A stretch of DNA of 64,000 nt from Ruditapes philippinarum. Lineage: Eukaryota. The stretch is from contig NW_026858371.1 in NCBI RefSeq assembly GCF_026571515.1, positions 186,001-250,000 on the forward strand, given 5' to 3'. The position numbers were made by a program. Of the stretch, positions 27,001 to 63,000 are shown piece by piece; within the stretch, counting starts at the first letter, position 1, and each line of letters begins with the position of its first letter.

Positions 27001-30000
27001 TTCCTCAATCCAATCATGTTGTTGTTATTGTTGGCGTTTGGTTTCACGTTCCACCAACACATTGTAGGTCCTAGCTCTCGAGCTTTACTTGTAGATGTAG
27101 ACCTCAGGTGTCCGGCTGTGCATTTTTTCAGTCACAAATGGGTAACTTAGTAGAACCGTCAATATTCCTTAATCTAGCTGGATTATCCAATTATGTATAT
27201 ATAAAATATTTGTGAGAAATAATTGTTTTTGTCATTCAATTTATACTAGAACACTTGCTGATCTTTATCAAGAGATGAAAGACATATTGAATTGTTGATA
27301 ATACATGTTGCCAATATCGAAAGATTTCCTATAGATATTTAGATGTGTATGACTGGTAAACTACATATTTTACATTGATATGAATCCTTATAACCAATCA
27401 AACAGAATGAAAATGCATAGCTGTGCTAATGAAAACTAAACGTCGTTTTACGTTTTTTTTCTTCAAAAGAAAAAGTTCATATCCACAACAATTGAAATAT
27501 TCATATGATCAGTTTTAGCTATTTCGTTAACATTGTCATGAGAGTCCAACTTATATGATAATAAATAACTTTGGCCGAACTATCTTGTTTTTGTTTTTTT
27601 TTTTAGAAATTGCCGGATATTTCGTTGATTGGCATTTTGATTGACAGAGGTATCAATCAAACAGCTTTTAACTGTTCACACATATCACATAACTGACTAA
27701 CATATTCTCCATAACAGTTTGACTTCAAACTGTTTGTTGCTTTTGTTCCTTGAAGGTACTCCATTTTAGACAAAATTGACATATCGATCTTCTAGATAAA
27801 TTGCTGCTATAGACCTGTATAATTGCCACTTGGATTTCCAGCACTATGCATACCAGATATTCTATCGTTGTGTTTCCGAAGCATTTCGTTGGAGTTTCGA
27901 ACTGAAAATACAAAATCATTGTGCAAATATATTAATCTTTTAACGATCAATCTCCAACAAATATCATGAATAGAATACTATCTAAGGTCCTGACGTTTAG
28001 TATTTGTAAGATACTAGAATTACGTATGTTCCCTACATTCTAGTACCTAGAAGAAAAACAGGCATTTCAAGTGAACAGTTCTATAATTTTCACGGAAAAC
28101 ATCATAACCCATCTAACTTATACCTCCGTTAAACATTTGCAACAATAAAACATTCAACATTTTCAACCAGTCGTTCCCGTAATTATGGAACACCATCTTA
28201 ATCTTAATTACGACGAATTAAGTAACTTTTATTCTCGAATCTTTTATCATGTTGTATAGTAAAATTAATAGATCAGCTTTTACTTTTTGCTTGAAAATAA
28301 GTTAATTTTTTTACAATATCTAATGTATATGCATATAAATATAATATTTTAGATATTATTATTATTATTATTATTATCATTATTATAACTACTATTATGG
28401 GATAACGGTTTTATGATGTGTGCTTGATTTCGAAAAAGACAATTCCAGTAAACAGTATGTACCATTAATTAGTATGTATGCCCAGCTTATTTGAGCATTT
28501 GTATTTTAGTTTTTAAGAAATATATTTGTTTCCAGATTATCCTTTTTAGTTTTAAAGAAAATATCTAACTAAGAAAATACAGGTTCTCCTGCTGATGTAA
28601 GCATAATGCAAAAATTCTGTAAATAGTCTCAGTGTTTAATGTAAAAGTAAGCTGTAGAAGACATCTGTATAGGATAAAAGTCATACGGAGAATTTATAAA
28701 ATGATAAGAAGTATCCTTAAAAAAAGATAGTCGGCCGAAATAAAACTGGTTAACTTGCAAATGATAATTCTTAGTTTTCCATGCAAAGTCATAAAGAAAT
28801 GTTAGTATAGCTGGCATAACAATGTCATACTAATTTCTTGTAGGATTATTAATCTTGAAAGATTGGATATTTTAAAATGTACGTGTTTCTAAACAAACCT
28901 GTCGTGTTTCGGTAAGTGAACTCAATTTCTATTACCAACATCTACGAAGAAGTATATTTAATATCGATTTTTTAGAACGTTTCAAAATTTACATTTTTCT
29001 CGACCTATAAATGTTTGGGCTTTTAAACACTCAAACCATTTACTATGGCAATTTGTTTCAGGCTTGACTATTTTTGAACTAGAATGACTGGACTGTTATT
29101 ATAGATACCATCAAAAGATATTCCGATGTGTGTCAAATTAAACACGCTAATAATTTGGACAAAAAAAATAAGATATCAAATTTTGTTTGATCATTCATTA
29201 AGACGAAACTAGCATGTTTTATTAAACCAATGTTTTATGTTCGTTTTGATCAATCGATCCCAATATACAAACATACTTCTCTATAACACTCAACATCGTT
29301 TTAATCGAACTGAAACTTTAACAAACAAATTTTTTAAACAGAAACACCGTTTCAAGCAGGAAATACGTACACGGAATCAGACATTGATATACAATTTAAG
29401 TATCCAGTTTCCATTGATTGCCAAGAAATACAAATATTTTGGATCTCATTCAAAACATTTAATGTATAAATAGAAATACAATACCTCTGAGAACAGTTAA
29501 GATGTTTCAATACATGATAAATAAGTTATTCGGAATACAATCAAAATAAGTAACGAAACGTTCAATTCAATGTGTTTATCAATATTTTACATTTAAACGT
29601 GAAATATAAAAGTCAAAAGTGAAGTATCTTATAATACATATTTTAACAAACGATTTCAGAAATAGATAAATAAATAAATAAAATAAAAATGAAATATGTG
29701 TGCTGTAGATGTTCGCACCACGCTCAATCGGTCATTTGGGGTGCAATATAATATATATTCTACTGTTTGTTTTTGTTTTGGGTTTTACGTCACATTGACA
29801 CAGTATAGATCATATCGCGACGTTCCAGCTTTACTGGTGGAGGAAGACCTCAGGTGCCCTTCCGTGCATTATTTCAGGCACGAACGGGCACCTGAGTAGA
29901 ACCACCGACGTTTACTGTATGGTAGCATGACCAACATGATATGAATGTCGGGCTGTCATTTATAAACGTCACAACATAGCCAGCCACTAAACAAATTATA

Positions 30001-60000: not shown

Positions 60001-63000
60001 AAAAGAGATTTCTTTGAATTCCGTCTGGTCATTCCAAAAAAAATGGACGGATTGATGATTAAAATGTTTCGTGGACGAATTTCTCAAACACTGTGGATCA
60101 AAGCGGCCGCAACTACTTATGCTAGATGGGCTCAGTTCTCAAGAGAGTTTAGCAATTATAGAATGTGCTATTGGTGAAAATAAAACCATGCTTTTACTGC
60201 CACCCATTTGTACACATGCGATACACAAGTAGATCGTACAGTGTTTTGGCCTCTTTTACCTGCCTACAATCAACAATGCTCAGACTTCTTGGTAGAGCAT
60301 CCCCTTCTTGTTGTAAATAAATAGGACATTTCCAATATTCTTTAGAAATGCTTGGCTTGGGAGAGCGTTAAGTCTGTAAATATATCACTAATGGATTCCG
60401 TACATGTGGAACCTCAATGCTATTACACCATTCCATTCTTCTGGATATAAGCGATCATCAACAATTGCTCGAGCTGATTTCTAGTGGAGACTTTCTAGTA
60501 GAAAACACTATATTCCCGAAGATTTCTTCCAGGCAATCAACAATACTGCCGAAGCCTCTAGCTGAACCACAGTCAATCACTGAAACGACTTCTATGTTTT
60601 CTGAAAATCATGCGCCAGACACAATTTTAAGAGAGGAAAATCCACAACAAGTCACAAAATCTTAACATCCCAGGCAATTTTAGAACAAAACACAGAGAAA
60701 GAAATTATAAGATTGAAAAAGAAACAGAAACTTAACGTGCAAGAAGAAAGAAAATGTTTATTTGCACATTTGTGTTCCTGTTATAAATGTTACACTGCTT
60801 GATGTTTAAACATAGCTCTTTCAAAAGCTAATCGATTTCAATGATAATTCTGATACGTTACAAGTGTATCATTGAATCTTTTCAACAAATAGATAAGCTA
60901 AAGCAGTATTAAATAGTATATATATACATGAACTGGTAATTAATAGGCTAGCACACGTTTATATAGATCGAAAGAAATATTAAAAAAAGAAAATGTCCGT
61001 AATTTCCAACTGACATGTCCGAATTTTACGAAAATAAAAAAAAATGAAAAATTGCTGGAAATGAAGATTGTTACCCCATCTTGCATGTTTTGTTAGTACG
61101 CAAAATAACACAATTTACATTCTGACCTTGAGAATTGACTTTCAATACAATATTTTCTTTTACTAATAAAGATTGATATAATTATTATACATGTTTGCTT
61201 CATTTTTGAAATGAAGTAACATTATCTGAGAACTAATCTTTGCTTTCAAATATTTTAAATCTACATATTTGATACATAGTTTTCGCCATAAACTCATAAA
61301 GTAAAAGTGTAACCGAAGTAATACTGATAAAAAAGACTAAAGGGACCACCGCGCGTGCAGTATTTGTTATTTCTGTTCCCTTGTTATCCGACAAATAATC
61401 TTTATTTTCAGTTAAACATGATATAAGTGGCAGGAAAACTCATCCCAAGTTTAGATTTCATAAGATAACATTTCAATGTTATCAAATTTATCTTCTCTGT
61501 TGACGTCACCGTAACTGTTCTTGTATATAATCACTAATATATCCCAATCTACAAAATTGTCTAACATATACTGTTATATGATCAATGAATTAACTGACTT
61601 AATATTTATCTAAAGTAATTGATTAGTAATTCAAGGTTAGAACCAACCGTGTTCCATTATGTTATATATGCATCGGTAATAACATTGCATAGTTATAATC
61701 ATAATATGCATTCACATTTTTTAAAAGAAAAAACATAACTTAAATATGCATAAAAATTGCTTTTCAATGCATGCTTACTGATGCAATAAAACGTTGTAAT
61801 GATTTTCTCGGCTCTTCTCGTCCAGAAGCAACAATGACAAATCAGACTATTTAGCTACATAATTTTTAGCTCGACTTTTCTATGAAAAGGGGAGCTATCC
61901 TACTCGCCCCGGCGTCGGCGTTGGCGTCACACCTTGGTTAAGTTTTTCGTACCACCCCACTTTATTTCAGAAGTATTACAAGTATGGCTTTGAAACTTAC
62001 CATACTTGTTCACCATCATAACCTCCATCTACAGACAAGAGTACATAACTCTGTCAAGGTTTTTGACAGAATTATGGCCCTTTTTTGACTTAGAAAGTGT
62101 ATTGAGCTTGGTTAAGTTTTTTGTACCACCTCACTTTATTTCAAAACCATTGAGGTATTGCTTTGAAACTGACCATACTTGTTTACCATCACGACCTTCA
62201 TCAACAGACAAGAGGACATAACTCTGTCAAGGTTTTTGACAGAATTATGCCCCTTTTTGACTTAGAAAATACATTGAATATGGGTAAAATCCACTTATTG
62301 CCTTAACCCTTTGAGATATTGCTTTGAAACTTTTAATGCTATTTCACATCATTACCCCCATCTGTACGCAAGAGAAGGTAACTCTGTCAAGGATTTGTTT
62401 TAAAAATTAAGGCCTTTTATCGACTTAGAATCTTGGTTAAGTTTTTAGTACCAGTCCACTTTTTGACTGAACTGTTTGAGATATTAATTTGAAAGTTGGA
62501 ATACTTGTTTACAATCATGATTCCCAAACATGTCCAGGAGAAGGTAATTCTGTCAAAGATTTTATTTGAATTATGGCCCTTAACTGTCAATGTTTTGTAT
62601 TATAGGCAAGCACTAAAAAACTTAAAAAATCTAAAAAAATTCATTCCTATCCACTGAACCTGCAGTGTTCAAGGGTATCACACAATTCAGTAAAATAATT
62701 CTTCACTAAATATCTTAATGCTCATGGCCATTGTTCACTTTAAAAATACAGAGATTCTTGTATTGCCTTTTACTGCAAAAACTTTTTTTATTGGCAAGCA
62801 ATAAAAAAGTCGAGCGCGCTGTCTTACGGACAGCTCTTGTTTTTGTTTGTTTGGATTTTTACGGCACGTCAACACACAACTGGCCATATCGTGCCGAATG
62901 CTATTAAAGGCTTAAAATGTTATGTAAAACTTTGTTAATGACAATAGAAATGAACCAATTAGATCCTAGAATACAAGTTTATCTCTTTCAAATAATCAAT

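What the first reader, a model, noticed from the sequence alone, without database searches (positions are those of the whole stretch)
27807..61540. Seven co-oriented copies of coding exon 1 upstream of a single exon 2: possible variable-first-exon locus or exon graveyard
Seen: exon-1 paralogues start at 31245, 37772, 41297, 45058, 49333, 53151 and 61540, all on the minus strand. I find only one exon 2, downstream of all of them. Copies D, F and G keep a GT donor in the same position and C has GC. Established: clustered protocadherin and UGT1A loci use many first exons spliced to shared constant exons. Inference: this could be an incipient or decayed version of that design. However, all six extra copies are disrupted in this haplotype, so any spliced products would be non-coding, NMD substrates or short peptides.
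Basis: partly seen in the sequence, partly recalled or inferred. Interest (0 to 1): 0.7.

Follow-up and report, generated by a model that had tools for sequence, protein, structure and literature searches.

The report
Dead first-exon copies beside one gene
One small membrane-protein gene sits downstream of six broken copies of its own first exon, which are leftovers of repeated local DNA duplication rather than a working set of alternative first exons.

Summary
There are exactly seven minus-strand copies of a ~280-nt coding exon with its proximal upstream region. Only copy A (31245-30966) is intact, 1 of 7. The proposed exon 2 (27901-27807) has no second copy.

The "exon graveyard" reading is supported; the variable-first-exon reading is not. 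Copies B-F lie in 3.5-4.3 kb tandem units that are alike over their whole length. They share frame-breaking insertions, and their majority consensus is itself broken. So that exon was already dead when it was amplified, and the last step duplicated a two-unit block. Among B-F, dN/dS has a median of 1.31. A is nearly frozen, with 6 unique changes against 44 in G.

Two caveats apply. Exon 2 is only a model: 149 of 767 candidate acceptors give comparable open frames, and there is no outside support. Neutral DNA between the three old lineages has decayed to noise, so lost downstream exons cannot be fully excluded.

The locus is ordinary. I did not search or fold the joined exon1+exon2 protein.

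The parts
30966..31245 (-). Copy A: intact coding exon 1 (93 codons + 1 nt). It encodes an acidic, disordered N-terminal part and one hydrophobic helix.
   Evidence: Open frame; P of 93 open codons by chance is 1.2e-3. Coding-like codon-position asymmetry. Hydrophobic window at residues 64-82. AlphaFold2 on this exon alone gives a helix at 45-92 and low confidence for 1-43. Only 6 unique changes against 44 in G.
31246..31365 (-). Promoter-proximal or 5'UTR block of A, alignable with all other copies. The last 40 nt are the best-kept part.
   Evidence: A vs B-F identity is 0.62-0.68 at -120..-41 and 0.85 at -40..-1. The 200 nt upstream of the ATG score 55-56 against C and F, against shuffles of about 10.7.
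30964..30965 (-). GT of the proposed donor of exon 1. Similarity to every other copy drops here.
   Evidence: A vs B-F identity falls from 0.82 (240..279) to 0.47 (280..319). blastn matches of A to C, D and F end at 30963-30965.
27902..30963 (-). Proposed intron of A. Its first 93 codons stay open in the exon-1 frame but look non-coding.
   Evidence: GC is 0.29; the read-through has no codon-position asymmetry and 53% F/I/L/N/Y. It matches the array only through a 57-nt repeat fragment.
27807..27901 (-). Proposed exon 2 (31 codons + stop). It is single-copy and a model only.
   Evidence: Acceptor and frame read. No other copy. GC 0.40 and coding-like asymmetry. However, 149 of 767 AGs give 25 or more open codons in this phase, there is no AATAAA/ATTAAA within 1 kb 3', and Pfam and Atlas find nothing.
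37521..37772 (-). Copy B, dead.
   Evidence: 3 stops along A's frame; 5 of 7 indels break the frame. Aligned GT at 37520.
41050..41297 (-). Copy C, dead; GC at the donor position.
   Evidence: 1 stop; 4 of 6 indels break the frame. Donor GGGCAAAG.
44767..45058 (-). Copy D, dead; GT kept.
   Evidence: 1 stop; 5 of 7 indels break the frame.
49088..49333 (-). Copy E, dead; stop at codon 2; donor region deleted.
   Evidence: 5 stops; 3 of 5 indels break the frame. Alignment.
52899..53151 (-). Copy F, dead; GT kept.
   Evidence: 1 stop; 5 of 6 indels break the frame, including a 22-nt deletion.
61264..61540 (-). Copy G, dead; a separate old lineage; ATA in place of ATG.
   Evidence: 1 stop; 1 of 3 indels breaks the frame. 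Terminal branch 0.29 against 0.06 for A.
36700..56150 (-). Tandem array of five 3.5-4.3 kb units carrying copies B-F, alike across exon and flanks.
   Evidence: Self-comparison gives long matches of 68-85% identity between units, e.g. 39876-42521 with 51728-54349. B-F form a clade with 100/100 support. B pairs with D (100/99) and C with E (81/88).
47688..48803 (.). 164-bp satellite (6.8 copies) inside the E unit, which lengthens that unit.
   Evidence: Tandem Repeats Finder; self-matches.

Best explanation
Copy A is the first coding exon of a live gene for a small single-pass membrane protein. Its downstream exon is predicted only. The other six copies are unprocessed pseudo-exons left by local segmental duplication. 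There are three old lineages: A, G and a progenitor of B-F. The progenitor's exon had already lost its reading frame (inferred from lesions shared by its descendants). The 3.5-4.3 kb segment around it was then multiplied in tandem, most likely by unequal crossing-over (inferred). The last step copied a two-unit block of about 8 kb, so that E and D gave C and B. The dead copies drift neutrally, while purifying selection keeps A and its proximal upstream region almost unchanged. This is why similarity between A and the fossils stops abruptly at A's splice donor. I infer no coding function and no working alternative-first-exon system for B-G.
For: Seven copies, all on the minus strand, 1 of 7 intact. 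Units B-F match each other over kilobases of flank at 68-85% identity, so the exon is not better kept than its surroundings. A +4 insertion after A nt 129 is present in 4 of 5 B-F copies (+3 in B), and a second 4-nt insertion in the helix-coding part is present in 5 of 5; both are absent from A and G. In the B-F majority consensus the ATG frame closes after 64 codons, and the parts matching A's protein lie in three frames. NG86 dN/dS for the 10 B-F pairs has a median of 1.31, a range of 0.83-6.25, and 2 of 10 below 1. On branch A, dN is 0.001 and dS 0.091. The relative-rate test gives 6 unique changes in A against 44 in G (p=3e-8), and 5-7 against 40-50 for each of B-F. Trees show a B-F clade at 100/100, with B+D at 100/99 and C+E at 81/88. 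No exon-2 remnant was found, although a planted exon 2 decayed by 25-35% was recovered in 67-88 of 100 trials. No other part of 1-37000 matches the array, apart from short interspersed repeats in both orientations.
Against: Exon 2 is unverified, so 'only exon 1 was copied' rests on a model. Between lineages, even dead-versus-dead exon comparisons are near noise: G vs C/D/F score 12-17 against shuffles of 10.3 sd 1.5. Lost or unconstrained downstream exons would therefore be invisible. On the deep branches to G and to B-F, dN/dS is 0.57 and 0.69 (my division of the values), which may mean those copies were functional for a time. Shared lesions could in principle have spread by gene conversion rather than descent. 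Among B-F, the block -45..+24 around the start changes at 0.32 per site against 0.62 in the rest of the exon (p=0.003, block chosen after looking). This could mean residual promoter function. A's slow-down also holds at third codon positions (4 vs 19), which protein-level selection alone does not explain.
Confidence: 0.8

Rival explanations
1. Decayed variable-first-exon gene. Up to three first exons (A, G and the B-F progenitor), each with its own promoter and donor, once spliced to one shared downstream exon as in UGT1A or clustered protocadherins. Two of them died and one was later amplified.
For: All copies are co-oriented upstream of the only exon-2 candidate. Upstream homology is kept in all copies. 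A GT or GC is kept at the donor position in 5 of 6 extras. No exon-2 remnant was found. Deep-branch dN/dS of 0.57 and 0.69 allows a functional period.
Against: Only 1 of 7 copies is intact. Five of the six extras were copied when already dead. The exon encodes the whole N-terminal part and the membrane helix, and exon 2 would add only 31 residues, so there is little 'constant' part to share. Exon 2 itself is unverified. No transcript data exist.
Confidence: 0.08
2. Ordinary whole-gene duplicates. G and the B-F progenitor were full copies of the gene, and their downstream exons have since been deleted or decayed beyond recognition, or differ from the exon 2 modelled here.
For: Neutral sequence between the three lineages is no longer alignable, so introns and unconstrained exons cannot be traced. 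The tandem unit (3.5-4.3 kb) is about as long as exon 1 plus A's 3.06-kb intron, so a unit boundary could have cut off the downstream exon. The exon-2 model is weak.
Against: If exon 2 is real and as constrained as exon 1, remnants should be 67-77% identical and would be found in 67-88 of 100 cases per copy. None was found in five B-F units, in G's 8-kb downstream stretch or in the 5.6 kb downstream of B. No other part of A's downstream 31 kb matches the array.
Confidence: 0.09
3. The dead copies keep working promoters and act as non-coding upstream start sites. These would be decoy or interfering transcripts, or NMD-directed first exons that tune expression of A.
For: The block -45..+24 is the best-kept part among dead copies (0.32 vs 0.62 changes per site; identity 0.84-0.88). 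ATG is kept in 5 of 6 extras. The palindrome TGACGTCA at A 31206-31213 is kept in 5 of 7 copies. Reading it as a CRE-like site is recalled, not tested.
Against: The block was chosen after looking. Other 60-nt windows are equally well kept (168..226 at 0.88). Misalignment around indels inflates the count in the rest of the exon. There are no expression data.
Confidence: 0.05
4. The exon-1 segment was captured and spread by a transposable element (Helitron- or Pack-type capture). Homology would then end at the element's terminus.
For: Similarity among the three old lineages ends within about 10 nt of the same point. Satellite arrays of 164-173 bp lie next to E and G. Interspersed repeats are common in the units.
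Against: All seven copies are co-oriented within 30 kb. B-F keep the same order of flanking blocks, as in tandem duplication. The satellites sit downstream of E but upstream of G. The drop at the donor is explained by constraint on A. No terminal structures were identified.
Confidence: 0.03

Closest known systems
Variable-first-exon clusters (UGT1/UGT1A, GCNT2, clustered protocadherins)
   Same: Both have a tandem, co-oriented array of paralogous first exons. Each has upstream homology and a donor-position GT/GC, and all lie upstream of a single candidate downstream exon. Real clusters also hold some pseudogene or relic exons (PMC1885805, passages seen; PMC3325998, abstract start seen).
   Different: In those clusters most variable exons are intact and selected. 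Here 1 of 7 is intact and five were copied when already dead. The 'constant' part would be 31 residues of unverified exon. No transcripts are known.
Unprocessed (duplicated) pseudogenes and partial gene duplicates in tandem arrays
   Same: Flanking non-coding homology is kept, including the promoter region and the donor. Stops and frameshifts have accumulated, dN/dS is about 1 among copies, and a multi-unit block was duplicated.
   Different: Only the first exon and its upstream region are traceable. The array was built mostly after the exon had died.
Mutually exclusive exon arrays (Dscam-type; PMC3364881, abstract start seen)
   Same: Tandem paralogous copies of one exon within a locus.
   Different: Those exons are internal, closely spaced and intact (the spacing is my recollection). 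Here the copies carry the start codon and promoter-side homology, are 3.5-8.4 kb apart, and are broken.

Membership tests
Variable-first-exon cluster (UGT1A / clustered Pcdh type) | Tandem, co-oriented paralogous first exons upstream of shared constant exon(s) | tested here: inconclusive
   Seven co-oriented copies are confirmed. The shared exon is a single-copy model with no outside support.
Variable-first-exon cluster (UGT1A / clustered Pcdh type) | Most variable exons are intact ORFs encoding alternative N-terminal parts | tested here: not met
   1 of 7 is intact. The six others carry 1-5 stops and 1-5 frame-breaking indels each.
Variable-first-exon cluster (UGT1A / clustered Pcdh type) | The array expanded by duplication of functional exons under selection | tested here: not met
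   B-F share frame-breaking insertions and a broken consensus. dN/dS among B-F has a median of 1.31.
Variable-first-exon cluster (UGT1A / clustered Pcdh type) | Each variable exon ends in a usable 5' splice site | tested here: inconclusive
   GT in D, F, G and (in a poor context) B; GC in C; deleted in E. Strength and use were not testable.
Variable-first-exon cluster (UGT1A / clustered Pcdh type) | Own promoter per exon and cis-splicing to the constant exon, seen in transcripts | not testable with these tools
   No transcript data. Only upstream sequence homology was seen.
Unprocessed tandem pseudogene / partial duplicate | Homology extends into flanking non-coding DNA, with no exon-exon junction and no poly(A) tail | tested here: met
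   Upstream homology runs from 120 up to several hundred nt, and the donor GTA is kept. Exon 2 sequence does not abut any copy.
Unprocessed tandem pseudogene / partial duplicate | Disabling lesions and neutral evolution | tested here: met
   Unique changes number 40-50 in each dead copy against 5-7 in A.
Processed pseudogene (retrocopy) | Lacks promoter-side homology, carries joined exons, ends in poly(A) | tested here: not met
   Upstream homology is present, the donor is kept, and the sequence after the exon is unlike exon 2.
Known protein family for the product of A | Significant match to a curated family or a solved structure | tested here: not met
   Pfam gives nothing above cut-off for exon 1 or exon 2. 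The best PDB match has E=0.034. The Atlas look-alike is an unnamed 117-aa eukaryotic cluster, score 0.92, which is a lead only.

The most novel reading that the evidence does not exclude
The dead copies are not inert. Their start-proximal block (-45..+24) is kept at about half the substitution rate of the rest of the exon, and may still fire as a promoter. Under this reading the locus works as a chain of non-coding alternative first exons or decoy start sites that feed into, or interfere with, the one live gene. That would be a variable-first-exon design reused for regulation rather than for protein diversity.
Probability: 0.06. Interest if true: 0.5.

Novelty: new member of a known kind. Interest (0 to 1): 0.22.

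Why it matters
This is mainly a caution for annotation and scanning. A co-oriented array of first-exon look-alikes upstream of one downstream exon mimics a protocadherin/UGT1A design, yet it can arise simply by tandem amplification of an already dead exon. Shared lesions and whole-unit homology tell the two apart. A side benefit is that the fossil copies act as built-in outgroups. They show that the live copy's exon and about 120-200 nt upstream are under strong constraint, and they place the exon's 3' boundary at the GT without transcript data. The gene product is an orphan single-pass membrane protein of unknown role.

Tried and rejected
- **Eighth copy.** A 30-nt blastn hint at 20875-20904 is not supported by the profile search, which gives E=2.6.
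- **Second exon of the dead copies.** The 219-nt match between 35694-35912 (downstream of B) and 57727-57917 (downstream of G), 77% identical, looked like a candidate. It has internal repeats and a hairpin-forming inverted repeat and no shared open frame, so I read it as an interspersed repeat.
- **Retrocopy origin.** Rejected, because upstream homology and the donor GTA are kept and no exon 2 abuts any copy.
- **Duplication breakpoint at the donor.** The abrupt end of A's matches at 30963-30965 first looked like a breakpoint shared by three lineages. The control shows that dead-versus-dead comparisons are near noise even inside the exon, so constraint on A suffices. A breakpoint is not excluded.
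- **Homology in the first 200 or 1000 nt of intron.** Not significant for A-G, A-C/D/F or G-C/D/F; 27-220 of 500 and 9-40 of 60 shuffles reach the observed score.
- **Single long exon for A.** The frame stays open for 93 codons past the GT (P about 1e-3). That stretch has no coding-like asymmetry, is 53% F/I/L/N/Y and has GC 0.28, so I do not read it as coding.
- **Family and structure searches.** Pfam, PDB and the Atlas gave no usable family for exon 1 or exon 2. MINAR1_C appeared only at Atlas rank 22, score 0.78, with no Pfam match. I ran no fold search on the exon-1 model, because half of it has low confidence.
- **RNA genes.** Rfam and the tRNA scan found nothing.
- **Promoter scan.** The bacterial promoter/terminator scan does not apply to a eukaryotic locus and I disregard it.
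- **Not done.** The joined exon1+exon2 protein was not built, searched or folded. No eukaryotic genome collection was available, so orthologues, other haplotypes and the organism remain unchecked.
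Full report
**The window.** It is 64 kb with about 30% GC throughout and no N. It has no tRNA or Rfam match. Only one stretch has a recognisable domain: an RNase H tail of a retroelement at 63332-63604. The organism was not determined.

**The observation.** They are 67-77% identical to A, with E from 1e-22 to 2e-52. A profile built from the seven copies recovers exactly those seven (E 1e-64 to 4e-102) and nothing else below E=0.8.

Copy A (31245-30966) is an open frame of 93 codons plus one base. 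With a stop frequency of 0.070 on this strand, that has a chance probability of 1.2e-3. The other six copies are all broken:

| Copy | Stops along A's frame | Frame-breaking indels |
|---|---|---|
| B | 3 | 5 of 7 |
| C | 1 | 4 of 6 |
| D | 1 | 5 of 7 |
| E | 5 | 3 of 5 |
| F | 1 | 5 of 6 |
| G | 1 | 1 of 3 (and ATA for ATG) |

B also has an aligned GT in a poor context, and E has lost the site. The proposed exon 2 (27901-27807) follows ttttcag and completes the split codon. It runs for 31 codons to a stop. Its sequence occurs once in the window by blastn, tblastn and nhmmer.

**Anatomy of the array.** Self-comparison shows that B-F are not isolated exon copies. They sit in five tandem units of 3.5-4.3 kb, spanning about 36,700-56,150. 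These units match one another over kilobases of flank at 68-85% identity, for example 39876-42521 with 51728-54349. The E unit is lengthened by a 164-bp satellite.

Among B-F, 60-nt windows from -350 to +450 around the start are 74-88% identical. The exon is not kept better than its immediate surroundings.

A shares only the exon and upstream sequence with these units. Identity to B-F is 0.85 at -40..-1 and 0.62-0.68 at -120..-41. Further upstream it is patchy, partly through an interspersed repeat. G matches A from about -135 to the donor region.

In the tree, A and G stand apart from a B-F clade with 100/100 support. A's terminal branch is 0.06 and G's is 0.29.

**When the B-F exon died.** In the alignment, a 4-nt insertion after A nt 129 is present in C, D, E and F (3 nt in B). 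A second 4-nt insertion, in the helix-coding part, is present in all five. A and G lack both.

The majority consensus of B-F is itself broken. The ATG frame closes after 64 codons, and the pieces that match A's protein lie in three different frames. The simplest reading is that the progenitor exon was already dead when its unit was amplified. Spread of the lesions by gene conversion is the alternative.

Flank trees pair B with D (100/99 upstream, 84/88 downstream) and C with E (81/88). F stands outside these pairs. Given the order F-E-D-C-B, the last step was a duplication of a two-unit block of about 8 kb.

**Selection.**
- For the 10 B-F pairs, NG86 dN/dS has a median of 1.31, a range of 0.83-6.25, and 2 of 10 below 1.
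- For A against the others it is 0.38-0.83.
- Splitting the three-lineage distances gives dN 0.001 and dS 0.091 on branch A. Branch G has 0.217 and 0.380, and the branch to B-F has 0.270 and 0.391.
- In a relative-rate test over the exon, A has 6 unique changes and G has 44 (p=3e-8). With G as outgroup, A has 5-7 and each of B-F has 40-50.

A is therefore under strong purifying selection and the rest are not. Two loose ends remain. The deep branches have dN/dS of 0.57 and 0.69, so G and the progenitor may have been functional for a time. A is also slow at third codon positions (4 against 19), which selection on the protein alone does not explain.

**Why similarity stops at the donor.** A's blastn matches to C, D and F end at 30963-30965, and identity falls from 0.82 to 0.47 across the GT. 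The first 200 or 1000 nt after the donor show no significant similarity between any two of the three lineages.

I first read this as a shared breakpoint, but a control argues otherwise. Within the exon, dead-versus-dead comparisons between lineages (G vs C, D, F) score only 12-17, against shuffles of 10.3 with sd 1.5. A-G and A-C score 77 and 68. Neutral DNA between these lineages has thus decayed almost to noise. Similarity survives only where A is frozen. The sharp edge therefore marks the end of constraint in A, which supports the exon boundary at 30966. A real breakpoint there is not excluded.

**How solid is exon 2?**

In favour:
- It has a good acceptor and a GC of 0.40, against 0.29 in the intron.
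- It shows coding-like codon-position asymmetry, as exon 1 does. The 93-codon read-through past the donor does not.

Against:
- 149 of 767 AG sites in the 16 kb downstream give 25 or more open codons in the right phase.
- There is no AATAAA or ATTAAA within 1 kb after the stop.
- A GTATGC at 27853-27848 could make it an internal exon (read).
- Pfam and the Atlas find nothing for it.

Exon 2 is a reasonable model, not a fact.

**Are there exon-2 remnants?** A planted exon 2 was decayed by 25, 30, 35 or 40% with indels. It was recovered at E<=0.01 in 88, 86, 67 and 39 of 100 trials respectively. Exon 1 copies differ from A by 23-33%. So if exon 2 is real and as constrained as exon 1, remnants should have been seen. 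None was found in the five units, in the 8 kb downstream of G or in the 5.6 kb downstream of B.

For presence or absence, only two lineages are independent: G and the B-F progenitor. No other part of 1-37000 matches the array, apart from short repeats found in both orientations. As far as can be traced, only the promoter side and exon 1 were copied or have survived.

**The product of A.** Residues 1-55 are acidic (net charge -14). A basic stretch, DNKEKERKRIAR, precedes a hydrophobic window, AVALISGILFLISVTLVTV, with mean hydropathy 2.55. AlphaFold2 on exon 1 alone gives one helix at 45-92 and low confidence for 1-43.

No Pfam family reaches its cut-off and there is no PDB relative. The nearest Atlas cluster is an unnamed 117-aa eukaryotic one, score 0.92, which is a lead only. 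The joined protein was not built, searched or folded.

**Comparison with known systems.** Variable-first-exon clusters (UGT1, GCNT2, clustered protocadherins) have tandem first exons, each with its own promoter, spliced to common constant exons. They contain some pseudogene or relic exons (PMC1885805: abstract start and four passages seen; PMC3325998: listing and abstract start only).

The layout here resembles them, but two defining features tested here are not met. Most exons are not intact (1 of 7), and the array did not grow by copying functional exons. It fits an array of unprocessed, partial pseudogenes. It is not a retrocopy, and it is not a Dscam-type internal exon array (PMC3364881: listing and abstract start only).

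**Verdict.** For an ancestral set of at most three exons it cannot be decided. A faint hint of residual function is that the -45..+24 block changes at 0.32 per site among B-F, against 0.62 in the rest of the exon (p=0.003, block chosen after looking).

Several things stayed unchecked. I did not consult any supplementary files.

Noticed in passing
window 1-6403 and 10811-17147: A second, unrelated direct duplication of about 6.4 kb, 72-88% identical in five collinear blocks, with an internal ~740-bp tandem (3530-4271 / 4268-5044). I recognised no gene in it.
   Followed up: no
window 47688-48803 and 61860-62581: A 164-bp satellite (6.8 copies, 95% matches) lies inside the E unit. A related 173-bp array, about 72% identical, lies just upstream of G.
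   Followed up: partly
window 62959-63604 (minus): Two overlapping ORFs look like the tail of a retroelement. Pfam RNase_H gives E=1.1e-6 for 63332-63604. Reading it as a non-LTR element is from recall.
   Followed up: partly
window 30688-30966 (minus): The exon-1 frame stays open for 93 codons past the donor (P about 1e-3), although the stretch looks non-coding by composition. This is either chance or an intron-retention frame.
   Followed up: partly
window 30966-31245 (minus): The live exon is slow even at third codon positions: 4 unique changes against 19 in G, with branch dS 0.09 against 0.38. Protein-level selection alone does not explain this.
   Followed up: partly
window 31221-31290 and the matching blocks of B-F: The block from -45 to +24 around the start codon is the best-kept part among the dead copies. 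It holds a 7-nt inverted repeat (TATGTCA/TGACATA in A, read). The palindrome TGACGTCA at 31206-31213 is kept in 5 of 7 copies.
   Followed up: partly
window 17969-18111, 32798-32965, 46222-46351, 51481-51655: An interspersed repeat of about 150 bp, 72-81% identical, found in both orientations.
   Followed up: no
window 35694-35912 and 57727-57917: A shared 219-nt element, 77% identical, with internal repeats and a hairpin-forming inverted repeat. It is probably a small non-autonomous mobile element.
   Followed up: partly
window 24703-24976: A 69-bp tandem repeat, 4 copies, 79% matches.
   Followed up: no
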